64,000 bases of DNA from Cyanidioschyzon merolae (GCA_000091205.1 AP006486.2), one strand, 5' to 3'; shown: positions 3,001 through 64,000, counted from the stretch's first letter. Program-made: numbers and translations. Notes: generated by a model not told the origin, from the sequence alone.

Positions 3001-3379
3001 GCGTCGTCGCAGCAAAACTCACTAGTCGCTACCTGTGCACCGGGTTTCCGGGGCAACGACAGCAAATATTTCCAAATCAACGACCTCGCCGTAAAAGCGA
3101 TATTCATAGGCACGCTCGTGCTCATAGGAAATCATTCCTTTACGTTCCGAGAGAGATTCCCAGTACAGTCGTTCCATGTGTATCGCCTCTGAATCACGCC
3201 CCCTCGGCAGGATTTCAGAGCGCTCTCCGCGCACCACTGTATCCGCATTCATTCATTCGTTCTTTCGTTCATTCATCCGTATTCACCGATCTTGTGTACA
3301 TGTCTGCAACATTGTCATTACAGAGGATCAGCATAGACATGATATAGACCTTAAACGACGTAATCGTCAACGCGCATAC

Positions 3380-12189: not shown

Positions 12190-14330
12190 GTGTCGAGTCC
12201 CGAAGAAAAGGAAGAGAAGAAGGACCGAAAGCAGGAGGCCCTACGTCGAAGGCGGCAAGAAAGACGACTGTACGACGAGAATATGGTGAAAACTTTCTTT
12301 CTTGGACATATCAAGGATCCCTGTAGGGAAAAGTTGCGAGACGCCATTGAAAAACGTGTTGACTCGTACTCGAAGAGTATTGTAAAGACGTTTTCAGGAC
12401 TAATGCATTTGGCGAGGGAGATGTATCGCGACGTAACGCAAATGGAAACAGTCGATGTTCCTGACGCGTTCTTCGATAGGACATGTATTCGATACCTGAT
12501 GCTTGGCACAGCGGAAGCGCGGAGGGAAACTCAGCTAGTGTATGCCCTCCACGAAAAGTTCGCGGAATTCCGCTCCGAGGCTACCCGACACAGGGGTGAA
12601 TGTTGTATTTACGAATACATGGCAATGGGGTGCCTCACGAATGTGAGGAGCCTTAAGATCTTAAACGTCGTTTCGTTCATGATACGCGTTCTCTTTGCGC
12701 TCTACCCGTGCCTTTTTCGGGAAGGGATTCGAGGAACCATCGATGGTATCAAGAACGATTCCCAGCATGAACGGGATATGAACTTTGTTGAGAAGAGGAC
12801 ATCACGGTGGAGAAAGAACGAGGCTTCTGTTCTCCGCTCTACCATTTAAAGGCATCGTTCGGTCTTGGAGCTTGGCACCCCAAGAGAAACACTTTCAGAT
12901 ATGAGAAAAGAAGAGAGATGTTCCCCCCCTCATCCTGCCTCACTTCATGTTATTTGACCGAGAACTCCGACGGAAGGCCCAAATAGAGCTAAGTATGGAA
13001 AAAATGACGGGTGGGAGAAACGGCATTGAAGTGGTTTTCCAGAAGCGCTTCAATTTCGTTTTTTATGCGAGTTCAAGTCGCATTTTGTGATTATCGACTG
13101 TAGAGGCCTTTTACGACTTCATGAAGGAGATCTATTTAGAGCTCGATGTAATAAACCGAGAGGTCATCGGCGAAAACAGGGACACCGACTAGAAGATTAT
13201 TTTCGATATCACGTGTCTCGAACCGGCCAAAAAAGGTATTCCAGCGGACAATCGATTTCGATATTGTGTACATAAGTGTACATCAAATGCTGTTGCAGGC
13301 ACTTCATCCTATCCCGTCTTCGTTATCGCCCTTGCCGAAGCACGAAAACAAGAAGACGGGCCGCGAAACGCATAGTCCCCATGAAAACGGCTTTGTCGTC
13401 GGCCCTAGCCCCTGAAACACGAGTATCATGACCTTTGCTGTACCCAAGCGTGAGTGCGATGGCACTGACCGAAACTCACGTCAGAAAGACAGCAGGATTT
13501 TGGGGATCTCACGAGAGAAATACTACCAAGAAGCGGGAATCATGAATGCAAGCAAGAAAATTGAGACATGAAATGCAGGAATGAAGGATCTCCTGGAATC
13601 TTTGAGCGAGGTGACGAGCCGAGAAGCGGATTTTGAAGCTTCTCGGAAATTCATAGAAGGTTCGCGTTGCTCATTAGGAGGTACTGTGGAAAGAATATAC
13701 AATGCCCCGGTGGGCTCGAATGCGAATGAATCTGGACTGTGGTAAGCAGCGGGCATTTGCGAATTGTTTCAGCCAGTTGTGCCCTGGAGGAGGATCAGAG
13801 TCAGATGCTCATTGTAGCGTATGGGGCAGGGCGCTGGAAGACCCAAAAAAGGTTTACGCCAGCTCCATCGACAAGAACATATAAGGAGTGCGCAAGGCGA
13901 TTCGTTACGATATAAGTAGATGAGCTTCGAATGACCTATACACACCATAAAGTGGGGTGCACACTTCAGAGAGTGGAGATGGAAAAGTGCCAGCGGAGCC
14001 CTGGGGAAACAGCAAAGTACGGACAGCTGACGAAAGAGCAAATGGAAAGAAGAGCCAAGTTCGTGGACTAGTTGCATTAGTGAGTACAACCCGCAACGGC
14101 ACGAAACAGATAGAGTTTGGGGATCGAGACTTTAACGCCGCCATCAATGGAAGGAAATGCGCGGTGCTGGAGAAAAGACCTCCAAAGTGGACACGAGGGA
14201 TCTTTATTGGACAACCTCTCAGAGTCGAACTATATGAGAAAAAAATTGGAAGCAGTCGTGGGTGGCCGGTCGAGAAAGACTGAGATGCGTTTGCACGTCA
14301 GCTGGAGACTTCTTGTCTAGGGCGCCGGTC
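12190..14330 (+). mobile_element. Degraded TnpB/Fanzor-like (IS200/IS605 OrfB family) element relic. A KR-rich N-terminal ORF (12190..12849) is followed by broken frames and a C-terminal RuvC-III-like motif at 14119..14182.
   Basis: ORF 13957..14283 encodes ...KQIEFGDRDFNAAINGRKCAVLEKRP, matching the TnpB/Fanzor RuvC-III signature (D.NAA.NI..RG). A second paralogous relic lies at 49959..50960 with nucleotide identity 24/25 over cgagacNttaacgccgccatcaat. The region is an AT-richer island and the usual CxxC...CxxC zinc finger is absent, suggesting decay. Confidence 0.4.
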
Positions 14331-14439
14331 ACCACTACTGTACACCGCTGGCGGCTACAACGTTATTCTTTTCAAAGACGTTTGTTTCCAGGGATGAATA
14401 CTGAGCGTCCACAGCAGCACACCTCTCCTTCGAACGCGT

Positions 14440-26148: not shown

Positions 26149-29100
26149 GTTAGAGGCCCAAGCTACGCACAAGTCTCAGGCGCAGCGCAAAACTGTTCAG
26201 TCAAGGCCATGCGCTCCAAGCGCGCTCCATCGTGCCGCAAGGGCGTGCGGCTCGTGCGCCTGCGAGATAGGGAGGTGCTCTACGCGCTGGCGCTCCGCAG
26301 CGCGTCGAAGCATCGAACGTAGGAGAAGCGGCATGCGCTAAAGTTCACCGCTTGTAGTCGTTGATCATGCGGGGACGGGGTGCGAGTTCGCTGGTATTTG
26401 CTGAAGCTTGCCAATGAAACCTGAACAGTGATGGCTGCTCGTTGCTGCACGGGAACCTGCGGGGTAATTTCTGGGCCTAGTCATGAAGGATCAGGATATG
26501 GGTGTGAAAAATTGATCTTGATGGGAGCTCTTCAACCGGGCACTCCAACGACACGAACGTACTATCAGATGCATCCATACTCTGGAATCGGCAGGGTGAC
26601 GCCTCTGTGAGCGACATTTGCGGTCGCGGCGACTGCGAGTGCGTGTGCCATGCACTTGTCGGCAATGCCTGGACTGGACGCACGCTCGCGTATGTAGACC
26701 TGCACGCCTGCTCCGTGAACGAGCAGCGATGCATGGAACCTCATAGCGCTGCATGCGGGGACGATGCCAGTTTCCAGAGCTGGGTCCTCATGATCGACGC
26801 TGCAGGTGCTGTTCTTTTCATCGATCTGCAACACGCATGTGCGACGGAGTGAGGATGCATGTATACGTCTGTACAGACGTATACATGCTCGTACAATCAT
26901 AGCATAGTTTATCCACGCCTACGTGCACACACCTATGGACGCGCACGAAAACAACATGAGTAGATGCTCGAGCCCGTCGTGCTGCAGACGCTGCGCATCG
27001 AATGAAGCATTTTGAGCAAGTTATGGCAACTCCTGGACAGGTGCGTGTTACTGTGCAGCGCGAGAGAACACATGCCATGGATGCTTCGAGAACAATATAC
27101 GCACGGGGTAAACTGTGGATCGTGGTATGCGCTCGCCCAGGCGTTCTTTGCTGGGAGCGCGCGTCAGTCGAGTGCGGGTGCCGTATGCCAGGGTAGATCG
27201 CGCGAGCTCTCCTAGCTCGCACTGAAGCTAGTGGCGTCAAGCATTCTCGCTTCATCAGCGTATACCAATAAACGTCCGGCATCTGTCGTTTCTAAAGTGC
27301 CCGCGACGTGCACACTGTCACCATTTAAGAGGCAAGATGCGCCGCCGCAGGCGCCGCTGAGCATGGCAACCGACCACAAGCGTTGCGCTCGCTGCAGCCA
27401 GCCTTGCGAGCGGGTTTGCGGGTGTCGCAACGCAGGAGCCAGTTGCACACGAGTCCCGTGAGTCGAATGCACTGTCCTGGTTTCATGGAGACTGGCATGA
27501 GCCCCGCATCCACAGCCGTACATAAGCGATCCACGCGGACATATTTTACGACGGAAATATGTTATTTTTGAAACGTTCGATGACAGAACATCATTCTGGT
27601 TCAAGAATAAGCTAGGGGAATCGTTCGCAATGTGTACATACCGCGCTCCAGGCTTGCTGTATTCCTGAACCGCACCATACCAGTGCTCGCGCTCTTGGCA
27701 TGTGATTTTTTCATCCCAAGTCTGTAGCATTCCAGCATCATGTCAACACTTAGGTCTTAACGAGTTCCTCAAACGGTCGCTGGACACGAATCCATTGGAC
27801 GCTCTGGAAGCTCAAGATATTTGCAAATGCTGATTGCGAATTCCTATGTTCGGTGGACATAGCGCTTCCGCAAACGATTGCTTGGTTTGGACGCACCGTG
27901 GCAAACCGCTTACCAGCGCCTGCCTGGTTATCTGATGTAAAGTCCGCTTCCCGTACACAATCGAGTGCCTCTATCTCGGTTTCATTCTCTTCTTCACAAC
28001 CTGTTTTGCGGCACATTCGTGCTTCGCTTCGTTACTTGTCGTTCTGAGTTCATCCATGGAAATCGTACAGAATCGATTCCCGCACTCGCCGTTCGCTCTC
28101 GACAAAGAAGCAGGAGTCAAGCTGGTGCGTGCCAAGGTATGTCCAGTGCCATAGATGACCACTGAACGACGCGACTTTTCGGTCATTTCGATTGTAGCCT
28201 ATGAGAACGTTGGTGAACGCACGTTCTCCTGCCTTCGCAAAACCGAAAAGGTTGGCGTCCTCGGGCGTGATGAAAAAGAACTCCTCCGGAAATCATTGCG
28301 ATGGTTCATATGGATTGTAACATACTCCCTGGAACGCAATATCCCCTTTCATTCGTCCTCATTTTCACGCGCGGGAGAGTTGAAACTACTACACACTCAT
28401 CGTACGCGTCTTGAAGCACTCGACATTGATCAGAACACAGTTTTTGTTTGTGAGATCGGCTTGAGGCCTTTCGGCACCTGCGCTGCCCATGTGCCGGTCA
28501 ACAACGTATTACCATACTCTTGGAGGCGTATGTGCAAGTCGCTGATCCTACGATCAGGCCGTGTTTTATCTTCTGTGCGGGAGATTTTTCTGCGTTGCCT
28601 CACGAAGGATCGATCAAAAACTCGCAAAGGTCACTGAAGCGTTGACCGGGTGGTTTTCGCGGCTCCTACGAGCAGTTGCTTGACGAGGCGCGTCATGACA
28701 AGGGAAACTAGCCGAGCTTTCCGCGTGTGAGAAGCTACGCACTGCGGAACGAAGCCACAGATCTTACTGTGTCGAACATTCTCCCGGTTCGTACGTTGAA
28801 ATCAGAAGGCCTTTGAAACTGTGCTTGACAATGGTTTTTTCATCGGACCTCCTCGACCTGGTTCCGAAAAGTTCGTTCCCTTGTTTCTCCTGTGGTTTCC
28901 TTGCCTTCTAGTTCACCAAGCGCGGTGGTATACATGTGGTTGCAATGTTCCGTAACCGTTCGTACTTTTTACAGGGAACAAGTACTGGGTTCGTGGTAGC
29001 ACTGAAGCTTGCCTATTCTGCCCACGTATATATGTTGTGTCCCTCGAGGATCTTTTCGTCAGCTTCGGCACGATTGCCGCTCCCAATCGCGGAGGAGCAC

Positions 29101-30056
29101 AAGTGCAATACCGCAGTTCCGGGCTGGCAGACGTAAACTACGACATGTCGAAGAACGGCGTCTAGGATACGAACGAACCTTCCATAGGTCCATGACCGTA
29201 GAGTTGGCGTTCGGCATCAGAGAAGACGCCATCGACTGGATTCAACGAGGAGATATGTGCCGGCACCAAGAGCAGTGCAACGCGAAGCGCAGCAGTGTGC
29301 TCCACGACTTCTGTTGCATGATGATAAGCGACGTTGTCATCGACCAGAACAGAGGAATGTGAGATGGAGAATCTCCAACGTGCTTCACTAAAAATATGCG
29401 ATATTGGATGACCCTGTACGAATGGACATTTCGAGGCGACCACAGCACTGCATCGTCGCAGAGTCTGACGTTCACTTCAGGCTCACCTGTCCCCTATTTG
29501 CGAACAGCGGTTTGCCGCTCTTCGGGTACCCATATATTACAGATGTGCCAATTGCTCCTGAATGAAGTCTCACTGGGTGATAGGACCACCCGTCTTTTCT
29601 ACGATAAGCGTTCGCGTTTTGGTTCGAACTTCATTGTGTATTGCCCAATGCAAGACGATCTCCGACACCTGCGCACTTTTTGCGTAGTCCAGTGATGTCT
29701 CTTCATCACTGTTCGTATTAACAGCATGGAAGCATCGCGTCTGGACATTCCTTTGATATTTTTCAATGACCATTCCGACTGAAGTGGATTGACGGGGTCA
29801 TCGCGCAGATAGACGATGATAAGCGCTGTTCTGGGTACACGACGAGCGCCACTTGGACTAGGTGAAGCGTGGTTCACCCACCTGCTGACCACAGAATAAC
29901 TGAGTTGTTGTGAGATGCAGATCCTGCATCGCAACCCAGCACAAGGTGCCGATGTCTTACCGCGGGCATTCACCAACCCACAGGATACATGCCTTTTATT
30001 GAATACCTGAGAAAAATCAACCGAAACGAAAAGCGCGTGCTGGTACAGATGGCCCA

Positions 30057-30226
30057 GAATTCACTGCTCTTCATATTACACGGTCACTAGAATGCGACCA
30101 GGTTGCACGTACCACAGAAAATGCAGCAACGTACGCTGCCAGAATTCACTGCTCTTCATATTACACGGTCACTAGAATGCGACCAGGTTGCACGTACCAC
30201 AGAAAATGCAGCAACGTATGCTGCCT
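30057..30226. repeat. Two tandem copies of an 85-bp unit (98% identical) just 3' of the WD40 gene
   Basis: gaattcactgctcttcatattacacggtcactagaatgcgaccaggttgcacgtaccacagaaaatgcagcaacgta(c/t)gctgcc occurs at 30057-30141 and 30142-30226. Confidence 0.85.
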
Positions 30227-33654: not shown

Positions 33655-36286
33655 CGATCACGAGGCACGCCATACAGCAGCAATGCTGTAAATACTGGAG
33701 TGCGCCGGGCGCTCCGTACCGCACAAGTGTATGGGCCGGCTGTCGAGGCTTGTTGTGAGCGATCAAAGACACAGTTCATGTCAGTGGTGTTTGTACGAGT
33801 CGGTGATGTAGGCGTTCTCGGGAGCGTTGACGGGAGGCCTGTTACATTGTCGGAGGTGGGTATTGAAGAGTGTTTTCGGAGCGGACGTGCGGGTCATGGA
33901 ACTTGACGGGTTTTTGGAATGCTTGACGAATATTTCTGATCACTGATGGCAAGTGCGGAGTCGCCGGGGAACCCGATCATTGCATGCGTTTTGTCCGGAT
34001 AAGGCGTACCCGGCAGGACGCAGGGTGCCTTGATGTGACTCGTGTGCGTTGTTAGGGAGGGCGTTTCGTCGATGGACAGCGACTACAGCAGCGGTGCAGC
34101 CCGTGTTGCGCTAGGCGTCGACGTGAGGCTCAGTAGCCGGAAAATGATCGCTGGATCAAGAGTCGATACTCAGCGAAACGGTCGGTCTGGAGCTAGCGGA
34201 TCTTTTTGGGGTATCCAGAGCGATTCAGTGGTCTTTTGCATTGATTGCCGATTACCATCTGCTATCCTGGGGATTCTGGGTAAGTTCAACGGGCGTGCAT
34301 CGACAATACAGTCCTGGAGTGTGCTTCGGGTGTCGCTGCGCGCCGCTGCCTGCGATGCACGTGTCGCTGCGACGCAAGACAGCGAACACGAGCACTCGGA
34401 AGCGCGACGTCAACAGGCATCGAAGCGAGCACCTCGTTGCAGTCATAGAGCCATGAGTTGCGACCATGCTGGTGCAGATGCAGCGTACAAAAAAAGGCAC
34501 CAGGTCAGCTTCATTGACTTGGCAGAAGCGCATGAGCAAGCGAGCCCGCACCAATGCCCATGCCCGAATGCGCTCTCGCTATACTCGGGTTCGGTGGACA
34601 TGGAATGCGGCATCGCTTGCGCTGTTCCTGCCTTTTGATTTCTTTGAAACGCTCGTCGATGTGCAGCATCGGTATCCAAGGTGTGGCAATAAGAGCTTAC
34701 GTATTTATAGATATTGCTTGAGGCTCCGGTTCCTGTTTTCGGAATCGATGGTACGAATCTTCGCAGCTAGACTAGGCTACTTCCCCAGAATCTATGTATT
34801 TGGCGACGCTGTCGAACAAGTGTTCCTAAAATGGCCGAAATCTGCATCCTGTTCATCATTAAAATCTCCCATTCCTCTCATATGCACACGTGTAGCACCC
34901 TCAAATGATGCCGTCTTCAAGAAGTATATCCGAAATCTTCATCCAATTCATCATGAAAAGCTTTCGCGCTTCTCGTTTCTTTACGAGTATCATCCCCAAA
35001 TCATGCATTTTTCAAGTTTCCGATCTTTTTCCGGTCCGAGGAAGCTCATATGCTCAACGATTGAATGCAGCTGGATTCATGAGGAAACATATTCGACGGC
35101 TCCCGCTGACCACTTTAGGCGTTCATGGAGGAAACCTAGCAATCGCTTCCAATGGACACTAGGTCGACGTTGTGCATGAAGGCGACGTAGACGGACCAGC
35201 ATGTATAGACTCATTTGCTCGCCTGGATTTTTCTTGCAGAACTTGTTTCATCATGGACAAAATCTCGTTCCGCACATCCTCTTCCGGATCGAACAGCATG
35301 GGCTCGCGCACGCACCAGACAGAGTACCCGCCGAGGGTATCGCGCGGAAGAAGCCCCTGATCGTCAGGACCGGCAGCGGGTGCGAAAACCGAAGAGGTCG
35401 GCATCGAACGTAGCCTCTTATACCCGTCCAGGGCATGTCAAGAGAAATGAAGCAAGCGTCCGCGCGCCATAGCGCGGCGCTTGGAGAATCATGCCTCTTG
35501 GACATGCGGGCTTTCCTGATCACAATCAAGCATCACTGCTGCGAAAGGCGCAGCGCGGCGGTGCACAAAGGGCATGGAAACGGAAAGCAGGACATAGATC
35601 GCAGCTTTCGACTGTCGATGAAATTCGGTGATAACTGCTGGATACTACTTCTTCGGGACTTGAACGGAACCATCGGCATCCTCCAACTGTTAAGAACAGA
35701 GCTCTATGGAAAGAAGAACCCGTCGTATTTACACCTGGAGATAAAAGAGAGGAGAGCGCCTGCCGAGACTGGTGTTAGTGACTCTCTGGGAAGCATCGCG
35801 AGCTCTCGTGCGAACGCGCTAATGCGCTGCATCGACCTGCTCCATCAGATGCCGACATACGTGTAGCACAAACACCACGCAGCTCAGTACCAGCACGACA
35901 TACCCAAAGCTCGGTACGTACCTTCACCTGTTGGTGCTCAATGCAGCTCGAGTCGTCGCCAACGCCTTCCGAATACGCCTTGTGCCAAGGCAGATGCACC
36001 TGCCTCCACCAGCAGCTCCGGAAACGATGCGGCGCGCGCTGATCGCCGTGCGTGTGTGCGTGCGAGCATGCGAGCGTGCGTGCGTGATTGCATGCGTGCA
36101 CGGCGGTAATCGCGCCTCCGTGAACCAGCCACAGCGTCGGATTCGATCGCCGCGCGGCTGCATTCACGGAAATCGCCTGATCAACAGCATTGTTCTGCGC
36201 TGGGCGTGCTACCCGATCGGTGCGACGGTGAATACGCTGGTGCTCCAGTCGCTCGCTTTCGTTTCACTCGTAACCAATCAGTATCC

Positions 36287-38733: not shown

Positions 38734-40658
38734 AGCGGGAGTCGGTGAAGCGTTCAGGTTGAAGACAGCGGGGATTTCAAATTGAAGGAGAAAGGCCAAA
38801 CGGCTAGCAACATCGCGAACATCGATCACGAAAATGGACACGTGTCCGCGCGCATTGCACAGGATGCGCGTGATGTTTTTTCATGGACAAAACGATTCCA
38901 TAGGCCAGCGTTCTCCGATGATGCGCATTTTTCTTTTCTTACTTTTTTTGTGTATTTTTTTTCAGTGTGCGATGAGATATCCATCAAACCCCTACACTCA
39001 AGTTACATTACCCAGACTTTTTCTCGGATATTCTGGTCGTTTCATACGTCCTATCGTGTGTGCTTAGAGCCTGCAGTTCCGTATTCGCCTTTGCACCTTA
39101 ACCGCTGGAGCTGATAGTTCATAGAGCTAGAACGGCTTTTCTATACCACAGAGGGCGTCGGCTCGAGGCGTGCTTCACCCGACGTAGAATCGGGTCTCGT
39201 CGTCAGTTTGTGCTCGGACAGTCTGCAGGCGCAAACTTGCCTTCGCTGCACGACACGCTGGAGAAACTTCGCTGTTAGAATGAATCCTGGGAGCCGCCTC
39301 TCTCCTTCGTGATCATGCATGGAATGCGTTGTTGTCGGTTGGCAATGCGGGTTTGTGCTTGACGCTCACCACAGTGGATAGGCGCAGAAAGCGCACTGGG
39401 CCCGTGTGCGTATCCGATTCGCTGGACCTTTTGCATAGAAGGTAGCATGCGCGTGATGGGCGCTCCCTCGACTGCCGCCACCGTCGTCGCGTGTGCGATC
39501 TGGAATCAGCGCTGTGGACTGGCGCTCTAGGGTCGATGCAGTATGTCTGCCTGCTTGCCTGGCTGCCTGCCTGTTGAAGCACGGGTACGCATGCGATAAC
39601 GCTGCCACTAGGGCCGTGATACTCGTGCTCGTGCACAGCCTGTCTTTTTTTGCTATTCTTATGTACTGGAGTAGCGCCGAGGAGAACGCTTCGTGCCGCC
39701 GATCTCGGTGACAAGGTGCACTATAGGTGCTCGCGTGAAGCTGGGCAGGTTCGCGCACCGCAGCGGCGCCTCGCAGCAGGCACGAATAGAGACGATCACC
39801 AGCAGCTGATGACGTGATGGAACTCGAGTGCGTATGAGTTCCTTCGGCTGTCTTCGATAGGTTTTGCCGTCATCGGCAGCTATGTGGTCCGCGATGAAAG
39901 CAACTGTGCCGAGGAGTGCTGAGAACCCTGCGAGCGACAAAGCGCCCGCCAGCTCTTCACAAGCGGCGAACGAGCGGTCGAGCGAGCACGCCACAGACGA
40001 GGTTAGCTGGGTACGACGCCGCCAAGCCGACGTGGTCGAGGACGTTATGTACCGCGAGCGTATGACGCTTCGCGTGTGCGCGTTGGGTTTTGGTGCGTTC
40101 AGTAGAGTTCGTGGCGCACTGGTGATCCGCGATTGCCAGTATCAGAATAGACTGATAATTGGAACTTGTCAATCCGTTCCAGCCGCTTGATGTTTTATCG
40201 GAAATAGTTTACATGGACGGAACCGAGACTCGAAGCACAGCGATCGCGATAAGCGCCGAACGGTTCATTCATGTACACGGGATACTTTGTCGTTAGTCGG
40301 AATGGCTTGGTTGACACGTTGCCACCGGAGTAGTTTAGATCATCAGAACCAGATGATTCGGAACGCGCCCAAACAAAACTTCACAAAAGACCAATAATAT
40401 CCCTCGTATTTGTAGGCACGAGACTCCGCTGTCTTCCGTTGCTTACCCGTAGCATCTACACATCACGCATTCTTCAAGTTCTTGATCTTTCTATTTCAAG
40501 CCAACTCGTGAATGCAGTGACTCGCGCCGTTTTGGTGGACAAGGCATCAAACTCGACGTCGTCCATTGGTGAATGCTTCACGAGCTCATCCCGACTGTTC
40601 ACTGGACTAATATCGTCAAGTAAGTGATTGAGTTTGAAAGACCAATCCTCCTTTCGTT

Positions 40659-41006
40659 GTGGCTATCGACGAAGCTGCATTCCACAGTAGCATGATCCAT
40701 CGCCCGCAATATGCTACCAGGGGTTCCCGTCTCTTCTGCTCCGAAAGAAAACGGTCTTGGTTTTGGACTTTAGTCACCGCAGCGATCGCTTCTAGTCGAG
40801 CACTGGCTATCGTTGTGCGCGAAGGCAGCGTGGACGGATCACGATTCCTGGCCATGATCTCCAGCCTGGATATTCCTTCTGGTACGTGTTTCATCATGAA
40901 CAACATCGCGTTCCATGAACCCGCTGTCGGATGGATCAGCATAAGCTTTCACGCGCTGCAGACAGCGTTCTTGACGAGCGGATCGCACAGAATAAAAAGT
41001 CCATGA
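40659..41006 (+). repeat. Copy 1 of a dispersed ~0.3-kb element family with conserved coding potential (boxes AIDEAAFHSSM ... ISSL..SGTCFIMNN)
   Basis: Homologous over ~100 aa (same frame) and ~70-80% nt identity with 51524..51958(-). Box 1 is also present at 59385..59465(-) and 63772..63852(-). Confidence 0.45.
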
Positions 41007-43389
41007 TTATGGGGTACGGCACCGAGCGCTGATACGAGCGAGTGCATCTAGCGAAGCGTTCTGTACACAACAGGGGCGTGTTCCGAGCGTTGGTGCAAAC
41101 GTTCACGTGCCACTGGACCGAAATCGGACCGCAAGGTGTTGTCGCCAGATGGGAACACATGGCTCGAGTCGAGTGTCACCGCTGCGACCGGCGCGCCAGT
41201 GCTGGGCGCAAACGCGAAGCTGAGGAAGGCAAGCCACTCGTAGACCGCAACCACTGCACGGGCAGGAGAGGCGTCGAGCGCAGCAGCCGGTGGCTGTGAA
41301 ATCGGGACTTCATGTTGCCGTCAATGTCCTTTGACCTCTGACAAAGGAGCTGGAAAGGCAAGCGAGATCCGCGTATTTAAAGCCGGATACAAGCAAGAGA
41401 AGAAAGCCTACAACGCCTAGTGTTGATGTAAATATGGGAAGAACCCAAAAATTTAGCGTTCACACCCCTCTTGAGTAAGTGGACTTGTCCCTTTTTCTTC
41501 TGACACCGGTGCCATGTCCCCGAATCGATGCATCGAAAAGGATGCGCTCGGGTGCGAAAACGCTGCCCGGTACCCGATTTGAAGCCTTTTCCTGGACATC
41601 ATATCGGTATCCTCGGTGACTTGGAATGATGGAACAAAATAATCGTTTCCGGTGATTTTATATACGGCGCTTCAGCATAGTCCGTGGAAATGTCGCTCGA
41701 CGTTAGGCGACTGTATGCTGCGGAAGCATGCAACATTCCCGAATGATGCGCTTTGCATTGCAGACTTGATGTAAAACGCTTTGTCTCTGCGCACATTGTT
41801 ACTGATGGATTCACGTGAGAGGACGCCCCTCATGCTCGAGTTCCTCGCCATCGGACGCTCGACCCGCTTTTTCGTACACCATATGGGGCATGAGGCTCTG
41901 GTCCAAACCCGATATCTCTTCCGCTATCAGCATGAACCCGGGATCTTGAAGCGCATATGTTGTCCTGAATATGTATTGAAGGGATCCGTGCACCGTTGAT
42001 TCCTGCACTCGTTGGGCGCTCTCTTCGAAGGCACAGCCGTGCCGCCTTTTGCGTACGACAGCGTCACGGGACGTCACCGACCGATGAGACTTTTCGGTGA
42101 CGTTTTTATCCAGCTGAGCGAACAAATCATGGAATGCGCACTTGTCGCCTTCGTAGAACGGTAATTGTTGGCGAACCCAGTGCACCCTAATTTTTCCTAT
42201 GGAGACGTTGGGACACATACAGTCCGCCTGAATAAAGCGTACAAGGCATGGCCCTGTTCCCGGTACGATGCTCAGAGCGAGTCAAGATCAGACATCAAGC
42301 CGCCATTCCGCTTGTCGGTATGCGACCCGTTGTCCATTGTGCCCGAATCCCAACGACTCCAGTCCATGGGAAACTTATCCCGTATTGTTTCTCCTGGCTT
42401 GCGCATTGCTCGTGTTGTTGCACGCAGCATTCGGTCGATGCATTCCAAAACAATGTAGACAGCTACCAACCCTGCGTCTGGAACGACTACGAACGGTCCA
42501 GGGACATGCTGCGCCAAGGCCCGCGAAATCAGACGAGCCTTTATTGTGTTGGATGCAATGCAACGCTCCAGGATGCCCTGCATCTCACTGTTTGGTAGCT
42601 TCTCCCCGTCACGATGCTGATGTAGCCAGGCATGGAAAACGGCTGCTCGCTGGTATTGCCGCGCTCACAGGTTCTCGTTGCTCTCTCTTTGCGTCACGTT
42701 TTGGGTGCATCTGCTTCCGGTTTGCACGTTGGTTTTTCTCCTTCCCATATGCTCGGTGTGGGGGCATAGATGTAATCACTGTACTCTACAACCGTTTTCA
42801 TTCTCTGGTAGCAGTCGGACAGAGAGGACCACGGCATAAAAAACTATCTTTTCTGTGTACATACGTATCTGCTGGCTCTTAGGTGCCTTTTCATCGTCAT
42901 CTGCATAGCGACCGTACCCGCAAACCGAAGCAACGCTTCCGTTCAGCGTATGCGGAGGCTGAGAACCACGTGCTTACAGGAGCACTTGCGATACCTGCTC
43001 ATGCAACATCTATGAGATGGGACTCTCCGGAAACGGCAAAGCCGTTGCTCGTTATACCTCACGAGGCAAACAAGAGACCTCGCCCCGGGAGGTACGCTCT
43101 TGGTGCACGAGCGATACCCTGAGAGCAAAGCGCGTTGCTCCTGGTTGTGCCTGTGCTGGATGCGCGCTCACCCAGCTGCAGCTAGGCACGTCTCCCGTTG
43201 ACCTTTATCACTGTATCTCGTGTATCCGGTGCCTACCTCAAAGTCTTCCAAACTATTCAGGCAACTTCATTCCTGAAAGGCTATCTACCTACCAGTATGT
43301 CTACGTTTGCGCGAACATCACGTGCGCTGCTCGCTATCGCTCATCGATATCCGACGTCTTCCCGTTCCACACGTACCTAGAGACGATTC

Positions 43390-48741: not shown

Positions 48742-49958
48742 TCCAGTTCTGGTTACTGTTGCGTCCCGAGCATACAGCTGCGGTAGGCCTTGGTCTTATC
48801 ACAGAATAATGGCAGCGGTTCGCTTGAGCAAGGCCCACCGTTTCCCGCTCCGTAAACAACGCGCCGGTAAACACTCAGGTATATAAACTGACGCAAGATG
48901 CGGCTTCCGCAACCCGAACTGGAAGCGCAGCACCTGCCCCAGCACTTTCTGCCCTTAAAAAGGTTTGCGTGGCCGTCTGGTGCGCTGCTGGGCAACCGCC
49001 AGTCCAAGGTAAGGGACAGTACAACAAAAACTCGCCCTTTGGACGACTCCACGAAGGTTCCCTGTACCTCCGTGTACTTGTGAATAACGTTCACTTCGAG
49101 CTGCAGCGCGAGCAACAGCTGCACCAGACCCCGCTATACCTTCAGCTGCCACTCTCAACAAAGAACACTCTCCCCAAAGCGTGTAGAAGCAAGCGAGCCT
49201 CAGCCTCTAACCCCAGAGAAGTAGTCAGCGCACTTGCAAACGTCGCCAGCACCACCACAGTAACTTTCAGAGCTTAACGACCAGCTTAGCGCGCGTACAA
49301 GTCTCTGTAGTCTCTGAAAGCACGGGCACCTGAAAGACCCTCGACAACCTCAAGGTATGCAGCTGGAATCGACGTGCTCCGGCCGCCGTTGCGACGCGCG
49401 CGCAGAACATGGACACGGATGCGCCATGTGCACGCATGTGCGCATTCCGGGACACGTCACCAGGCGCTCCGCTGCGTGCAGCACCTCAGCGGCATCGCTC
49501 AGGCGCACTGCATCGATGCGTGGATCCGAAGGCGCGTACACCGCGCACCGCCCGATGTTTTTTCCATTTGTGTATATATATTGACCGTCTCGAAAGCAGG
49601 GAGGACACATTCCACTTTTAGTCCCTCTACTCGTTTGTTTTCCACCTCAATCATGTGGTATCGAATGCTGTTTTGTAGTGTATAGAAGGCGATCGACAAC
49701 ACGATGCAATGTAGTGTATAGATCGAAGATGAATAACCTGTTGGATATGTATTCTTAACTGAAGAATGCAAGGAGCACTGCATTCCTCTTTTAGGTCAGT
49801 CATATCAAAGTACTCAGATGGTTGAGGTACACTGAGAGAAACAATCGTAGGCGCGACGCACCAGTAACCGATATTCTCGAAGACTGCTTGCGATGCATGG
49901 CAGAAAACGAACCGTGGATCACCTAGCGCAAAGCAAACGTTACGATAGTAGCAACTAG

Positions 49959-50960
49959 GTGTGTCTCTTTTTTCCAATAGCTAGTTCACTTGGTCCTGAG
50001 GACACTGGGATACAGTCGCAAAAAAATATTCTAGTTCACGCACAGCCATCTTCCACTGTAATCGAAATCCCCACAGCTTTCCGGGAACGTCGAGATCGAT
50101 ATGAAGCACAGGAGCGTCGACTTGTTTTCTATGCCGATGGGCCCTTTTTCCGGAAGAAACCGTCGGAGCGTATATGGGTATGCGCATAGAAGACGTCCGT
50201 GGTGTGTATGATCGAACTCAAAGAGAACGAGGATATCAACACCAGTTCTAGCTGCATTGGAGTCATTCTGCGGCCTCAGTTTCGCTCGCAGAGAAGGATC
50301 ATACGAAAGCAACCACTTTGCCGAATCATTGAAGACTTTTTTTCAAGACGTCTGGTGACTTTCTTCTTTTACGCAACGTGGTATTCCACCATTCTTCTCG
50401 CGTTCCTGCTTTTGAAGATTCTATCAGGATAGAGATGCTTTTCATTCCAGCGTTCTCTTCGTGGTCCAACATCATTGAAGGAGCATTTTCTATCCTGAGA
50501 AGTAATGATCGCTTCTCTAGGCGAGTCGCTGAATCTTTAAGCCCATTCGTATACCGGGACACGTTTGGTCTTTCTTGCGCAAGCACTTCTCCATCTGGGA
50601 AGCGCCTCACCTAAGGCCATAAAAAAGTGCGTTCATTTGCAGATATAAAAAATTTAAGCAATGAGCTGGGGTCTACACTTCAGAGCGTCAAGATGGAGAG
50701 AAGGCAGCGGATCATTGCGGCAACAGAAAAGCTCAGAGAGCTGACAGAGCCGGATTTGGCAATGAGGGCACGCATCCTAGCAGTCCCCACTATGCTGCGT
50801 TCAACCAGAGGCGATAAACGCATGAAATTCGTGAACCGAGACGTTAACGCCGCCATCAATTTCAGGAGATCTGCAGTGCTGAAGACGAGACCTGCGGAAA
50901 TTACGTGAATCAACTTTTTGGGACACCCTCTCAGATCCGAGGTGTGCAGGGAGAAACTGA
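49959..50960 (+). mobile_element. Second degraded TnpB/Fanzor-like relic: four consecutive plus-strand ORFs in shifting frames ending with the RuvC-III-like motif (50825..50890) and a conserved tail
   Basis: ORF 50627..50908 ends ...TMLRSTRGDKRMKFVNRDVNAAINFRRSAVLKTRPAEIT, paralogous to 13957..14283. Similarity continues past the stop into the next frame (INFLGHPLRSEV vs GIFIGQPLRVEL). The region is an AT-richer island. Confidence 0.45.
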
Positions 50961-51523
50961 AACCGATAGCAGGGGGCCTGTCGAAACAGACGGGGAGGCA
51001 TCTGTGATTGCATACTCATTTACCGTCCATAGATGTGAACCGTTGTTCGCTTCACTGGAACATAGTCCAGAACGCGGGCGAACACGTGAAAGTGCGCTGC
51101 CTCATCTAGTTGTCATGAACATGAGCGTCTGTGAGATTTCTCTGGACTGCTTCCTTCCCAGCTGGGTCATTTCCGGGACTGGATACGCTGGTGCTTCGTG
51201 TCCCGCCAGCTACGATGTCAGCGCTAGCGTGACGATTACGCAGTTCCCCGCAATTGCAGACGCATTTCGTTACCAGGCAGAGGTTGTGATCTATGCTTCG
51301 CTTCTCACTTTCGTCTACTTTGTAAAAAGCCTCAATGCGCCTTTCGCAACGATGCCACCTGACTCAGGTCGATTGTTCCCAAACGTTCACGCCAACTCCA
51401 CTGCCAGGCGGTGCACTGTGGCGAGTGACGGCTTGCTTCAGGACCCAGAACATCTCAGAGGCGGATACAAAAGGCTTCTCTCGATAGTCTCCCCGGCTCC
51501 GGGTCCAATGCCTTACTCCATGA

Positions 51524-51958
51524 TCACGGACGTGTTCTGTGTGATACCCTCGGCGAGTATTCTTCCCGTTGCATACGCATATACACGCTCTTTCTTTCAA
51601 TAGAGGCGTTTCGGAACTCGGTATTATTCATGATAATACAAGTACCGGAAAGAGAATACAGGCTCGAGATCTTGTCCAAAAGATGCGCTCCATCTACGCG
51701 CACTCGGTGCAAAACGCTGCCACATGCTGCAATGGGAGTGGTCAATGCGATGACTGGAGTCCGAATCGGAGAACCTTTCCCATGCAAGCAGCAGAGACGG
51801 ATGCTTCTGACAGCATATCCGGCGAATGGTCTCATGCTGCTAGTGAATCCCGTATCATCGATAGACAAAAGAGAAGAGAATTCGTTTTTCGACCGGAATC
51901 GAGTAGTAGTCGTGGACGTGAAAAGTTCAGTGAACCTACCGCATGAGCTTGTGAGCAA
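51524..51958 (-). repeat. Copy 2 of the dispersed ~0.3-kb element family (SIDDTGFTSSMRP ... ISSLYSLSGTCIIMNN), convergent with and ~600 bp from the second TnpB/Fanzor-like relic
   Basis: Protein-level and nucleotide-level homology to 40659..41006 and to the box-1 segment inside the LepA-flanking repeats. Confidence 0.45.
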
Positions 51959-52626
51959 GTCGACTAGGGACCATGTCGAGTTTTTTCACCTCATGAATGC
52001 AGCGGCGCGTGATGCTGTCCCCGCGACTTGCATTGTAACAAAAAGACGAGATACTTGAAACATGCGTGATGGATACATTCTATACATCAGGATCGAAGAA
52101 GTCTGGCGTCCTCTGCGCATGCTCTGGGCGATGATACAGGTTTTACCACAGAGTTCAGTTCGACGGTGTCGCAAATTATCTCGATTCCGGTGACGGAACA
52201 AATTCGAGCGGCAACGCGTCGGAGTTGCTTCTCCGAAACGACACCCTAGATTCCCGAACCTATATATGCGTCCGTGAACCCTTATTGATGCAATTGGAAT
52301 GTCAAAGCTTTAAATCTAAAACGAGAGTTTGCAAAAAATCGAAACGCAGGAACAGACTGAGCATCTCCGTATCTGCTTTTCCTCTGACACGGGTTTAGAT
52401 CGCCGCTGCGTACATCGTTTCCCAGAAGAAATTTCGCATGATATAGTTCCTGCCCTAGACGCTGAAGACGCTTGCCGACTCTGTGATACCTGATCGCGTC
52501 TTCAACCCTAAGCCAAAGAAAAACCGTGTCCTGACCTCGTGAGCGACACGTCCACAGACAGGTTTCCTGCGGCTTGTAGTCGCTAGCGCGCGTGCTTACC
52601 GGAGGTCAAACGCATAGGTGCCAGTT

Positions 52627-58588: not shown

Positions 58589-59613
58589 GTCAACGTGAAA
58601 AAGTATGGATCCACTTTGCTGACTCTTGCGTACGCTGTAATATCTGGGTATCTTGTCGTTGTTGTTACACCAACACCACTCATTTCACGATACGCCCCCT
58701 GGCTGCTCTTTTTTGCAGTCTTGGACAATCCGCTTCACATACGGGCGTATCTAGTGTCCATCCGGCGCCGTCGCAAGCAGTCGCAGAATGCTCCGATACA
58801 AACAAACGTCCCGATATGGGTGCTTCCTGCGTTAGCCAGCGCACCGGGTACGGACTGGCAGGAGTCGCAGTCTACGCTTCGCTTGCCGTGCTCATTCTCG
58901 TTGTATACAATATCAATGCGCTCGTCGCAGCGCAGACTGCGTGGGCTCTATCAGGTGTTTCTGTTTGCGTACTAGCGCGCTCCCTGAGACGATTGCCCTC
59001 TCGCGCTGCACAGCTTGCGTTATCGCTCGGTAGACGCACTGTGGGCAGGTACAGGAGACTCTTGGGGATACCGTTGACCGTCTCCTCGCCCGGGTACTCT
59101 GGCCTAGGGTCACGAGCGTCCGCTGTGCCATTCACTAGGCGAGGGCGTTGTACGCTGTCCGGTGCATGCGCAAGTGCACACTGTTGCATTCGAGAGTGGA
59201 TTTGCATCACGTGATGTTCCCCATGAGCACGAGACAAGTGCCGCAGGGACTAGTCAGTGTCGTGAACAATTCGAGAGGTGTCGATCCGTCGACGCTCGCT
59301 CTGTGCACCGCACGATCACACGCTCAGCTGGAAGTGATCGCTGCGATGCCTGCATTCCTGGTCCCTGGATCGTTCACGATACTTGAAGCAAAGACGGCAG
59401 ACGCGGGGCACGTATCGCACCCGAGGACGCATGCTGGTATGGAATGCCGTCTCGTCGATGGCCGCAGCCAAAGGCAGCATCGTGTCTCGAACGGCACTGA
59501 ATGCCTGGCGAAGCAAGATCAGCGAATGTGTCGCATGACCATGAGTGCACAAGTCGCCAACGGAAGACGTCGAGTACGGTTCGTGGTCCATCCAGAGACG
59601 CGATTTACCGCAC
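58589..59613. repeat. Direct repeat R, copy A (at least 1025 bp), 3' of LepA; it contains a box-1 copy of the dispersed element family
   Basis: Colinear with 62976..64000 at a constant offset of 4387 bp with only scattered substitutions (about 97% identity) and no indels noticed. It may extend beyond 59613, but copy B is cut by the window end. Confidence 0.9.
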
Positions 59614-59991
59614 CTGCGAGGCGCCACAGACCAGGAAGATCGAGGACTTGAAATATGAGCGATTTGGGCATGCCCTATGGATCGAGAGGAAAAACGCAGA
59701 TACTCGTGTGTATGCATTGGGTAAGGATCTCGGATACTTTACGAACCAGTGTCCGACGGCGTCGTGTATCATCTCGATTCCGTTCACGCACCGAATGCCA
59801 GCACCACAAGACTCGAAAGCGTCACGCTAACACAGACTACGACCGAGGATCCCGGAACCAGGTCTGAACCTGTGAGCACATCTCGGTGCACTTGGAATGT
59901 CCGTACAGTACGTCTTGACCTGGGTTCTGAATAGAATCGCAAGGCGCAAAAACACCCATCCGTCCAGTGTTCTGGTCTCATTTATGAGGCA

Positions 59992-62975: not shown

Positions 62976-64000
62976 GTCAACGTGAAAAAGTATGGATCCA
63001 CTTTGCTGTCTCTGGCGTACGCTGTAATATCTGGGTATCTTGTCGTTGTTGTTTCACCAACACCACTCATTTCACGATACGCCCCCTGGCTGCTCTTTTT
63101 TGCAGTCTTGGACAATCCGCTTCACATACGGGCATATCTAGTGTCTATCCGGCGCCGTCGCAAGCAGTCGCAGAATGCTCCGATACAAATAAACGTCCCG
63201 ATATGGGTGCTTCCTGCGTTAGCCAGCGCACCGGGTACGGACTGGCAGGAGTCGCAGTCTACGCTTCGCTTGCCGTGCTCATTCTCGTTGTATACAATAT
63301 CAATGCGCTCGTCGCAGCGCGGACTGCGTGGGCTCTATCAGGTGTTTCTGTTTGCGTACTAGCGCGCTCCCTGAGACGATTGCCCTCTCGCGCTGCACAG
63401 CTTGCGTTATCGCTCGGTAGACGCACTGTGGGCAGGTACAGGAGACTCTTGGGGATACCGTTGACCGTCTCTTCGCCCGGGTGCTCTGGCCTAGGGTCAC
63501 GAGCGTCCGCTGTGCCATTCACTAGGCGAGGACGCTGTACGCTGTCCGGTGCATGCGCAAGTGCACACTGTTGCATTCGAGAGTGGATTTGCATCACGTG
63601 ATGTTCCCCATGAGCACGAGACAAGTGCCGCAGGGACTAGTCAGTGTCGTGAACAATTCGAGAGGTGTCGATCCGTCGACGCTCGCTCTGTGCACCGCAC
63701 GATCACACGCTCAGCTGGAAGTGATCGCTGCGCTGCCTGCATTCCTGGTCCCTGGATCGTTCTCGATGCTTGAAGCAAAGACGGCAGACGCGGGACACGT
63801 ATCGCACCCGAGAACGCATGCTGGTATGGAATGTCGTCTCGTCGATGGCCGCAGACCAAGGCAGCATCGTGTCTCGAACGGCACTGAATGCCTGGCGAAG
63901 CATGATCAGCGAATGTGTCGCATGACCATGAGTGCACAAGTCGCCAACGGAAGACGTCGAGTACGGTTCGTGGTCCATCCAGAGACGCGATTTACCGCAC
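62976..64000. repeat. Direct repeat R, copy B, 5' of LepA; runs to the window end
   Basis: See copy A. Confidence 0.9.

What the first reader, a model, noticed from the sequence alone, without database searches (positions are those of the whole stretch)
40659..41006. Dispersed ~0.3-kb element family with conserved coding potential (4 copies in the window)
ORF 40659..41006(+) and ORF 51524..51958(-) are homologous over ~100 aa. Box 1 (AIDEAAFHSSM vs SIDDTGFTSSMRP), a middle stretch (R.VDG...L..ISSL) and box 2 (SGTCFIMNN vs SGTCIIMNN) keep identical spacing, at about 70-80% nt identity. Box 1 plus its following ~15 codons recur at 59385-59465 and 63772-63852, inside the two LepA-flanking repeats (AAIDETAFHTSMRPRVRYV...RLCF). 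All copies lie in AT-richer, gene-poor islands. One is 600 bp from, and convergent with, TnpB-like relic 2. This looks like a non-autonomous or fragmentary mobile element (possibly the partner gene of the Fanzor-bearing transposon) or a fast-evolving small-protein family.
Basis: seen in the sequence. Interest (0 to 1): 0.6.

Follow-up and report, generated by a model that had tools for sequence, protein, structure and literature searches.

The report
Decayed mariner-type transposase gene relics

Summary
It is under-described. The window is C. merolae 10D chromosome 4 and holds seven relic copies, not four. They cover 0.6-1.1 kb of a ~0.93-kb gene, not 0.3 kb. ORF 40659-41006 passes Pfam DDE_3 (29.3 bits, cut-off 28.6). 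A profile of 24 intact ~310-aa relatives hits all copies (best E=2e-25). All copies carry stops, frameshifts or lost catalytic residues. A-B differences are equal at the three codon positions (0.39/0.40/0.40) and dN/dS is 0.75-1.09 among A, B and C, so decay is neutral. D and E are one insertion copied by a 1.4-kb segmental duplication around LepA. Two newly found copies, F and G, sit directly upstream of Fanzor (CMe-1A) relics on the same strand. The 1.4-kb G unit recurs at four or more other loci and shares both end regions with CMe-1A. An intact transposase-then-Fanzor element exists in a metagenome contig. The family is homologous end to end (E=1.6e-47) with the "Mariner" transposase of the published Fanzor1 element PUl-1. 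Verdict: ordinary transposon fossils, with a modest new point, namely a likely classification for CMe-1A.

The parts
40416..41240 (+). Relic A (A-type transposase pseudogene). It contains the flagged ORF 40659-41006.
   Evidence: Pfam DDE_3 E=9e-7, 29.3 bits against a cut-off of 28.6. Family HMM positions 102-228, E=2e-25. tblastx extent against B. First D is kept (AIDEAAF); the second D is now N (IMNN). The ORF ends at the TGA shared by the family.
51282..52370 (-). Relic B (A-type), the most complete copy. It covers aa 4-255 of intact relative P0040 and contains ORF 51524-51958.
   Evidence: tblastn with P0040 gives 52309-51527. HMM positions 130-250, E=3e-14. The outer limits of homology with other copies are 52370 and 51282. 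There are a stop and a frameshift upstream and a frameshift downstream.
34966..35552 (+). It has an internal deletion after box 1 and is the only A-type copy here that keeps the second catalytic D (IMDK).
   Evidence: tblastx against A, E=6e-16. HMM positions 179-246, E=3e-6. Translation.
58902..59665 (-). Relic D (A-type), inside the 1.4-kb repeat 58589-59987 next to LepA.
   Evidence: tblastx E=1e-13. tblastn and HMM pieces. Three frames are needed to follow it.
63290..64000 (-). Relic E, the 98%-identical copy of D in the second LepA-flanking repeat (62976 onward). It runs off the window end.
   Evidence: the repeat finder family D3, 98% identity, spacing 4387. tblastx. L075 and L076 are 99% identical to this region.
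29207..29907 (-).
   Evidence: HMM positions 28-262 in three pieces, best E=1.4e-7. tblastn with intact relatives.
27881..28825 (-). Fanzor1 (CMe-1-like) relic Fz3, downstream of F on the same strand and internally deleted.
   Evidence: Fanzor HMM positions 80-178 at 28825-28511 (E=2e-6) and 587-687 at 28183-27881 (E=6e-18). tblastn.
49660..51050 (+). G unit, a ~1.4-kb composite repeat.
   Evidence: HMM E=1.7e-14 and 1.9e-9. Pfam DDE_3 26.7 bits on 50351-50611. The unit is collinear at ~69% identity with L002, L056/57, L058/59/60/66 and L100. It matches CMe-1A 2737-3083 at 70.6%.
11872..14380 (+). Context: a nearly full-length CMe-1A Fanzor1 element relic (Fz1, 'TnpB-like relic 1'). It lacks the 5' 647 bp and has no transposase relic beside it.
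   Evidence: blastn against the published CMe-1A consensus, positions 648-3169, 77% identity. Fanzor HMM E=2e-93.
41646..42182 (-). Weak Fanzor C-terminal relic, convergent with relic A.
   Evidence: Fanzor HMM positions 559-739, E=2.7e-4. This is weak and is treated as tentative.
38860..39448 (+). Repeat containing a fragment like the CMe-1A 5' region (the region that Bao and Jurka equate with TE-N2_CMe), upstream of relic A.
   Evidence: CMe-1A positions 84-282 match 38991-39194 at 76%. The stretch is 86% identical to L005:1367-1946.

Best explanation
The dispersed units are fossil copies of the transposase gene of a cut-and-paste DNA transposon of the Tc1/mariner-IS630 kind (Pfam DDE_3, DD34E spacing, ~300-aa protein with N-terminal helix-turn-helix domains). 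They lie in the nuclear genome of Cyanidioschyzon merolae 10D, chromosome 4. The window holds seven relics from six insertions. There are two subfamilies: A-type (A, B, C, D/E) and G-type (F, G). None can encode an active enzyme and they now drift neutrally. The 115-aa and 144-aa ORFs are chance survivals, bounded by a TGA inherited from the A-type founder copy. Inferred: the G-type element was the autonomous partner of the Fanzor1 repeat family CMe-1A. The ancestral element read TIR, transposase, Fanzor1, TIR, like L042 and Pythium PUl-1. Deletion derivatives then spread: Fanzor-only CMe-1A, and the transposase-plus-Fanzor-tail G unit. The A-type subfamily, founded by a copy with a nonsense codon before the catalytic E, was probably moved in trans. 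D and E arose by a later segmental duplication around LepA. The confidence given (0.85) is for the transposase-fossil reading; I put the Fanzor-partner inference at about 0.5-0.6.
For: Shown: Pfam DDE_3 above threshold for ORF A. A profile search found 282 relatives, including intact 300-340-aa proteins with DE.GF ... LMDNVAFHK ... PPYSP..NPIE. An HMM of 24 intact relatives hits seven places in the window. DD34E spacing is readable in G. Stops and frameshifts occur in every copy. Codon positions differ equally and dN/dS is about 0.75-1.09 for A, B and C. A and B are 75-78% identical to the A-type consensus, close to the 77% of the local CMe-1A copy. The organism is identified by exact protein matches BAM79109.1 and BAM79114.1. 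Fanzor link: F then Fz3 and G then Fz2 lie on the same strand. The G unit recurs whole at four or more other loci. Its right end is an inverted copy of the CMe-1A 5' end (20 of 23 bases; 1 of 5000 shuffles reach the score). Its left part matches CMe-1A 1-96 (1 of 3000 shuffles). L042 carries an intact 301-aa transposase followed by an intact 702-aa Fanzor. The PUl-1 Mariner transposase matches the family HMM at E=1.6e-47 over positions 7-301. From the literature: Fanzor1 occurs in Mariner elements, and CMe-1A is unclassified (PMC3627910).
Against: No TIRs or TA target duplications could be found around A-F. Mobility of these particular copies is therefore inferred from family membership and dispersal, not shown. 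Fz1 and relics C and D/E have no partner beside them. Roughly two thirds of the A-type loci in metagenome contigs show no Fanzor within reach. TE relics cluster anyway, so adjacency alone is weak evidence. A-type copies lie next to Fanzor relics in several orientations (convergent at A, B and L062; collinear in L002 and L056), which no single element architecture explains. Inter-copy homology of the G unit extends about 85 nt left of the TIR-like motif, so the true left terminus is unresolved. The 5' 900 nt of CMe-1A encode no recognisable transposase.
Confidence: 0.85

Rival explanations
1. The ORFs are a fast-evolving family of small (~115-145 aa) functional proteins, possibly domesticated from a transposase.
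For: Two stop-free ORFs of 115 and 144 aa align without gaps. ORF A is identical in at least two other assemblies (Logan SRR29605734 and a JGI metagenome).
Against: A-B differences are equal at codon positions 1, 2 and 3 (0.39/0.40/0.40), and dN/dS is 0.75-1.09. Homology continues outside the ORFs through stops and frameshifts. Catalytic residues are mutated differently in each copy. The ORF end is an inherited TGA. The other assemblies are 99.5% identical in DNA, so ORF preservation there says nothing. No gene is annotated here in the NCBI record: the cluster holds no NCBI member.
Confidence: 0.03
2. The A-type copies are a non-autonomous subfamily. A founder with a premature TGA before the catalytic glutamate, plus a ~16-codon insertion, was amplified in trans by another transposase such as G-type. 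On this reading the copies never encoded their own active enzyme.
For: The same in-frame TGA follows '..YSPxxSPRRSP' in 16 sequence-distinct copies (fewer independent loci), including A, B and C. Conserved in-frame sequence (S.G.A.G.E.E..GIERSLLY) follows it. None of the 24 intact relatives used for the HMM has the insertion (consensus PPYSPDFNPIEN). Near-neutral divergence between copies fits a single burst.
Against: This is compatible with, and nested inside, the best explanation, so it is not a true alternative. The TGA could also have been read through or edited in the active ancestor. Pairs involving D give dN/dS 0.35-0.54 on only 36-38 codons, which hints at some divergence under selection.
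Confidence: 0.45
3. The copies are dispersed only by segmental duplication of host DNA, not by transposition.
For: D and E lie in 98-99% identical 1.4-kb direct repeats flanking LepA.
Against: A, B, C, D, F and G share nothing beyond the transposase-homologous stretch, and their flanks are unrelated. They are 60-70% identical, against 98% for D/E. Dozens of further copies sit in unrelated contexts in metagenome contigs.
Confidence: 0.03
4. The transposase relics and the Fanzor relics are unrelated families that merely pile up in the same gene-poor islands, through nested insertion or a target preference.
For: Orientations vary between loci, and several relics of each kind stand alone. In L002 and L056 the G unit abuts an A-type copy truncated at about HMM position 100-140, which looks like nesting.
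Against: The G unit, with the same transposase-Fanzor-tail junction, recurs collinearly at four or more loci. It shares both end regions with CMe-1A. The intact tandem in L042 and the published PUl-1 precedent also argue against it.
Confidence: 0.25

Closest known systems
Mariner-type (Pfam DDE_3, IS630/Tc1-mariner-like) transposase of Fanzor1-bearing elements such as PUl-1 of Pythium ultimum (Bao & Jurka 2013, PMC3627910)
   Same: The protein family is the same. The PUl-1 transposase matches the HMM built from this family's intact relatives at E=1.6e-47 over positions 7-301. Pfam architecture is the same, HTH plus DDE_3. The gene order, transposase then Fanzor1 on one strand, is seen in relic form at F/Fz3 and G/Fz2 and intact in L042.
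   Different: The C. merolae copies are all dead. TA target duplications and clean TIRs could not be shown here. The A-type subfamily has a ~16-codon insertion with an in-frame TGA between PPYSP and the catalytic E, which PUl-1 and the intact relatives lack.
CMe-1A, the Fanzor1 repeat family of C. merolae (3169 bp, ~150 copies, reported without TIRs and of unknown class; Bao & Jurka 2013). By my inference it is the same as the 253-copy 3.2-kb 'WSV486-like' repeat of Nozaki et al. 2007.
   Same: The Fanzor relics in the window belong to it (77% identity over positions 648-3169). The G unit shares CMe-1A positions 2737-3083 and about 1-96. Its right terminus is an inverted copy of the CMe-1A 5' end. 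Divergence from the consensus is similar.
   Different: CMe-1A encodes no transposase. Relics A-E share no DNA with the CMe-1A consensus.
The eight 'class II transposase-related elements' reported for the complete C. merolae genome (Nozaki et al. 2007, PMC1955436)
   Same: They were described as weakly similar (E = 0.071 to 6e-7) to bacterial transposases. That is what a decayed IS630-like DDE_3 relic would give. They are probably members of this family (inference).
   Different: This single 64-kb window already holds seven relics, so the published count is likely a large underestimate.
Bacterial IS630 family insertion sequences
   Same: DDE_3 catalytic domain, DD34E spacing, a ~1.1-kb element that is little more than the transposase gene (the A-type extent is ~1.09 kb).
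   Different: The host is eukaryotic and nuclear. The closest intact relatives are from metagenome contigs of unknown organisms, one of them linked to a Fanzor1 gene (L042).

Membership tests
Tc1/mariner-IS630 superfamily transposase (Pfam DDE_3) | Significant match to the DDE_3 catalytic-domain profile | tested here: met
   ORF A scores 29.3 bits against the gathering cut-off of 28.6, E=9e-7. The G fragment scores 26.7 bits, just below the cut-off. The family-specific HMM hits all seven copies, best E=2e-25.
Tc1/mariner-IS630 superfamily transposase (Pfam DDE_3) | Catalytic D, D, E triad with about 34 residues between the second D and the E | tested here: not met
   As a working enzyme, no copy keeps all three. 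The first D is present in A, B, D and E. The second D is present only in C (N in A and B, G in D and E, R in G). The E is kept in G (NIIEGAF) and in B and C (IERS), but there it lies out of frame or behind a TGA. The ancestral 34-residue spacing is still readable in G. The copies are members by descent, not by function.
Tc1/mariner-IS630 superfamily transposase (Pfam DDE_3) | N-terminal helix-turn-helix DNA-binding region upstream of the catalytic domain | tested here: inconclusive
   B aligns to P0040 from aa 4, and G and F to HMM positions 11 and 28 onward, so the region is present as sequence. Pfam HTH hits are sub-threshold even in the intact relatives.
Tc1/mariner-IS630 superfamily transposon | Terminal inverted repeats | tested here: inconclusive
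   None were found around A-F. The G-unit right end is an inverted copy of the CMe-1A 5' end (20 of 23 bases; 1 of 5000 shuffles). L042 has a 28-nt, 79% complementary pair at 62-89 and 3488-3515.
Tc1/mariner-IS630 superfamily transposon | TA target-site duplication | not testable with these tools
   The element ends are too decayed, and no empty-site alleles or whole genome were available.
Fanzor1-bearing Mariner element (PUl-1 type) | Transposase and Fanzor1 genes within one element on the same strand | tested here: met
   Relic form: F (29907-29207) then Fz3 (28825-27881), and G (49741-50521) then Fz2 (50660-51004). Intact form: L042, 112-1017 and 1205-3313. This is not met for A, B, C and D/E, which are alone or convergent with a Fanzor relic.
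CMe-1A (Repbase family of C. merolae) | DNA similarity to the published 3169-bp consensus | tested here: not met
   For relics A-F there is no blastn match. Only the tail of the G unit (positions 2737-3083) and its first ~100 nt match. The transposase relics are therefore not CMe-1A copies.
   The repeated sequence is itself transposase coding sequence covering up to HMM positions 4-268 of 310. No TIRs were found.

The most novel reading that the evidence does not exclude
The DDE_3 element found here is the missing autonomous partner of CMe-1A, the Fanzor1 repeat that by my inference is the ~5% repeat of the 'transposon-poor' C. merolae genome and has stood unclassified since 2013. On this reading that repeat is a Tc1/mariner-IS630-type non-autonomous derivative. 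A more speculative addition is that the A-type transposase gene carried a conserved in-frame TGA just before its catalytic glutamate, and that this codon was read through as a way of limiting transposase dosage rather than being a founder defect.
Probability: 0.45. Interest if true: 0.4.

Novelty: new member of a known kind. Interest (0 to 1): 0.27.

Why it matters
For the window itself, these ORFs should be masked as transposon pseudogenes and not annotated as genes. For C. merolae, a model alga described as having only eight class II elements, one 64-kb window holds seven transposase relics, so the DNA-transposon content is underestimated. The transposase relics and the Fanzor relics share gene order, a recurrent composite unit and end sequences. 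This gives a testable classification of the CMe-1A Fanzor1 family as Tc1/mariner-IS630-borne. It also provides an intact transposase-Fanzor exemplar (L042) for studying how Fanzor nucleases travel with DDE transposons. None of this changes what is known about how such elements work.

Tried and rejected
1. A word-indexed protein search with ORF A alone found only itself. The exhaustive profile search was needed.
A hand-made consensus peptide worked.
3. Inverted-repeat searches around A, B and C, a fuzzy scan of the window for the TIR-like motif (4 hits against 1.75 expected) and an end-to-end comparison of B (727 of 2000 shuffles as good) gave no TIRs.
4. I tested whether the 5' 900 nt of CMe-1A are a decayed transposase gene. 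They are not.
5. Intron explanation for the shared TGA and ~16-codon insertion: the insertion is only about 45-50 nt, in frame in copy C, with no conserved GT...AG. I judged it unlikely.
6. RIP-like or deamination-driven decay: GC-to-AT and AT-to-GC changes per site are nearly equal (0.179 against 0.169), so this is rejected.
7. Pfam gave nothing for ORF B alone or for the L042 Fanzor.
8. A PDB search with the L012 Fanzor failed because of its internal stop and was not repeated.
9. I could not work out one architecture that explains every A-type/Fanzor/G-unit arrangement. This remains unresolved.

Full report
**Source and setting.** The window carries long intron-less genes (SET/PHD, TKL kinase, LepA, coatomer epsilon and others) at GC of about 0.57-0.60. 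These are separated by islands of GC 0.48-0.53. Two encoded proteins are exact matches to BAM79109.1 and BAM79114.1 of Cyanidioschyzon merolae strain 10D, on a 513,455-bp record. That is the length of chromosome 4 in the complete-genome paper (PMC1955436).

- ORF 40659-41006(+) and ORF 51524-51958(-) align over 113 residues without gaps (35% identity, E=1e-16).
- tblastx of 40301-41400 against the window gives E=1e-24 for the 51.3-52.1 kb copy and E=1e-13 for each of the two LepA-flanking copies.
- Three details need correction. DNA identity between A and B is 66%, not 70-80%. Homology runs far beyond the ORFs (A 40416-41240; B about 52370-51282). Outside the two ORFs the homologous frames are broken by stops and frameshifts.

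**What the copies are.**
- ORF A passes the Pfam gathering threshold for DDE_3 (PF13358; 29.3 bits against 28.6).
- A profile of the window copies, searched against 1.84 billion representative proteins, found 282 relatives at E<=1e-3. Most are short decayed ORFs. Several are intact 300-340-aa proteins with DE.GF ... LMDNVAFHK ... IPPYSP..NPIEN, which is DD34E spacing.
- An HMM built from 24 intact relatives was run on the six-frame translation of the window. It hits seven places:

| Relic | Coordinates | Strand | HMM positions | E-value |
|---|---|---|---|---|
| A | 40536-40928 | + | 102-228 | 2e-25 |
| B | 51533-51895 | - | 130-250 | 3e-14 |
| C | 35136-35339 | + | 179-246 | 3e-6 |
| D | 59150-59465 | - | 139-242, two pieces | 1e-3 to 3e-3 |
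| E | 63537-63849 | - | 140-242, two pieces | 0.02 to 0.07 |
| F (new) | 29207-29907 | - | 28-262, three pieces | best 1.4e-7 |
| G (new) | 49741-50521 | + | 11-268, two pieces | 1.7e-14, 1.9e-9 |

- For B, tblastn with P0040 covers aa 4-255 at 52309-51527.
- In G the DD34E spacing is still readable (LLLRN ... 34 residues ... NIIEGAF).
- No copy retains an intact frame together with all three catalytic residues.

**Are they under selection?** No.
- In codon alignments, A and B differ at 39%, 40% and 40% of first, second and third positions. dN/dS is 0.75 (A-B), 1.09 (A-C) and 0.79 (B-C).
- Pairs involving D give 0.35-0.54, but on only 36-38 codons.
- A and B are 78% and 75% identical to a consensus of 19 A-type copies. 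GC-to-AT and AT-to-GC changes are balanced, so there is no RIP-like bias.
- The 'conserved coding potential' is shared ancestry of neutrally decaying pseudogenes.

**How they were dispersed.**
- D and E lie in 98-99% identical 1.4-kb direct repeats (58589-59987 and 62976 onward) that end at the LepA stop codon. They are one insertion copied by segmental duplication.
- The other copies share nothing beyond the transposase-homologous stretch and are 60-70% identical to each other.
- A scan of JGI metagenome contigs with a family consensus peptide returned 80 loci. Several are 99% identical to this window, so the same or a very close strain is in those samples. Dozens of other decayed copies sit in unrelated gene contexts.
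- All copies from contigs with this lineage's composition are decayed (at most 69 bits). Intact genes (260-365 bits) occur only in more distant, mostly lower-GC contigs.

**Link to Fanzor.**
- The published CMe-1 Fanzor1 protein and the 3169-bp CMe-1A consensus of C. merolae (Bao & Jurka 2013, PMC3627910) match the window's 'TnpB-like relics'.
  - CMe-1A 648-3169 matches 11872-14380 at 77% identity.
  - CMe-1A 2737-3083 matches 50661-51004.
  - Smaller fragments lie at 11046-11141, 24866-24956 and 38991-39194.
- A Fanzor HMM built from CMe-1, L012 and L042 adds 28825-28511 and 28183-27881 on the minus strand. It also gives a weak hit at 42182-41646 on the minus strand.
- So F is followed by a Fanzor relic on the same strand, and so is G.
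- The G unit (49660 to about 51050) consists of a ~100-nt leader, the transposase relic and the last ~350 bp of CMe-1A. It is collinear at about 69% identity with L002, L056/57, L058/59/60/66 and L100. These are different gene contexts, so it is a discrete repeated element.
- Its right end has the consensus ...CCATGGTCGTGAAACGTTTTC, where inter-copy homology stops. This is an inverted copy of the CMe-1A 5' end (20 of 23 bases; 1 of 5000 shuffles reach the score).
- Its left part aligns with CMe-1A 1-96 (1 of 3000 shuffles).
- Contig L042, from a different lower-GC organism, carries an intact 301-aa transposase (DDE_3 E=1e-27). It is followed on the same strand by an intact 702-aa Fanzor homologous to CMe-1, with a possible 28-nt inverted repeat at the ends.
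- The 'Mariner' transposase of Pythium element PUl-1, published as a Fanzor1-carrying Mariner with TA duplications, matches this family's HMM over nearly its full length (E=1.6e-47).
- Bao & Jurka wrote that CMe-1A lacks TIRs and that its class is unknown. The data here suggest it is a Fanzor-only derivative of a Tc1/mariner-IS630-type element whose transposase survives only as the G-type relics.
- This step is inference. TIRs and TA duplications were not demonstrable for the window copies. Fz1, C and D/E have no partner beside them. A-type copies lie next to Fanzor relics in several orientations.

**A subfamily peculiarity.**
- In A, B and C the ORF, or the homologous frame, ends at the same TGA (CC[A/G/C] TGA T..). 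The same TGA, right after '..YSPxxSPRRSP', is present in 16 sequence-distinct A-type copies across the window and the metagenome loci.
- Conserved in-frame sequence follows it (S.G.A.G.E.E..GIERSLLY) and contains the probable catalytic Glu.
- Relative to intact relatives this is a ~16-codon insertion between PPYSP and NPIE. The consensus of the 24 intact relatives does not have it.
- The simplest reading is that the A-type founder already carried a nonsense codon and was amplified in trans. Read-through or a tiny intron cannot be excluded but have no support.
- This also explains why so many database 'proteins' of this family end at the same residue.

**Comparison with the literature.** Nozaki et al. 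2007 counted only eight class II 'transposase-related elements' in the whole genome, with weak similarity to bacterial transposases. They also counted 253 copies of a 3.2-kb repeat with a WSV486-like ORF. By my inference the latter is the Fanzor family, because Bao & Jurka list a Fanzor1 in white spot syndrome virus. Seven transposase relics in one 64-kb window imply that the count of eight is a large underestimate.

**Verdict.** The finding is real but ordinary. These are fossil Tc1/mariner-IS630-type (DDE_3) transposase pseudogenes, not a 0.3-kb element and not a small-protein family. Novelty is limited to placing a decayed family in C. merolae and proposing a class for CMe-1A.

Noticed in passing
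window 40985-41030, 51500-51545(-), 35339-35384; also L024, L026, L029, L030, L037, L046, L057, L088, L103: All A-type relics share an in-frame TGA at the same codon, just before the catalytic-Glu motif and inside a ~16-codon insertion that intact relatives lack. Conserved in-frame sequence follows it. This is either a founder defect or recoding.
   Followed up: partly
window 49660-51050; L002:5012-6410; L056:3408-4873; L058:4461-3133; L100:7057-5591: A discrete ~1.4-kb composite repeat made of a transposase relic plus the last ~350 bp of the CMe-1A Fanzor element. Its right end is an inverted copy of the published CMe-1A 5' end, and its left part resembles CMe-1A 1-96.
   Followed up: partly
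window 58589-59987 and 62976-64000 (continues beyond the window): 1.4-kb direct repeats, 98-99% identical, bracket the LepA/GUF1 gene and end exactly at its stop codon. Metagenome contig L076 (4520 nt) aligns as a circular permutation of repeat plus LepA. That suggests an assembly collapse, a tandem duplication or an excised circle.
   Followed up: partly
window 11872-14380 and 11046-11141: An almost full-length CMe-1A Fanzor1 pseudogene that lacks the 5' 647 bp. A separate 96-bp copy of the CMe-1A 3' terminus lies 730 bp upstream. No transposase relic is adjacent.
   Followed up: partly
L012:994-3528 (also L005-L014): Related metagenome contigs carry a CMe-1-like Fanzor reading frame of 845 codons interrupted by a single stop. 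Near-intact Fanzor genes therefore persist in relatives, while every transposase copy seen in this lineage is dead.
   Followed up: partly
window 38860-39448: A repeat 86% identical to L005:1367-1946. It contains a fragment like CMe-1A positions 84-282, within the 5' 635 bp that Bao & Jurka report as 95% identical to TE-N2_CMe. It lies about 1 kb upstream of relic A.
   Followed up: no
window 30054-30223: A perfect-looking tandem duplication of an 85-nt unit (two copies, 99% identical) in the intergenic region just downstream of the stop codon (3' end) of the minus-strand WD40 gene 30493-33654.
   Followed up: no
window 33425-33667 and 4964-5242: Coding triplet-repeat arrays inside long ORFs: a GAT/AAC-rich repeat (period 9-18 nt) near the 5' end of the minus-strand WD40 ORF 30493-33654 (read on that strand it is ATC/GTT-rich), and a GTCGGT-type repeat inside the Kelch/Trefoil ORF.
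   Followed up: no
L002:6001-7029 (P0020): A 342-aa 'protein' in the database is a read-through of a Fanzor C-terminal relic fused in frame to an A-type transposase relic. It shows how gene callers turn these fossils into chimeric hypothetical proteins.
   Followed up: yes
whole window against PMC1955436: The complete-genome paper reports eight class II elements genome-wide, yet this 64-kb window alone holds seven DDE_3 relics and four to five Fanzor relics. This part of chromosome 4 is unusually relic-rich, or the published count is far too low.
   Followed up: no
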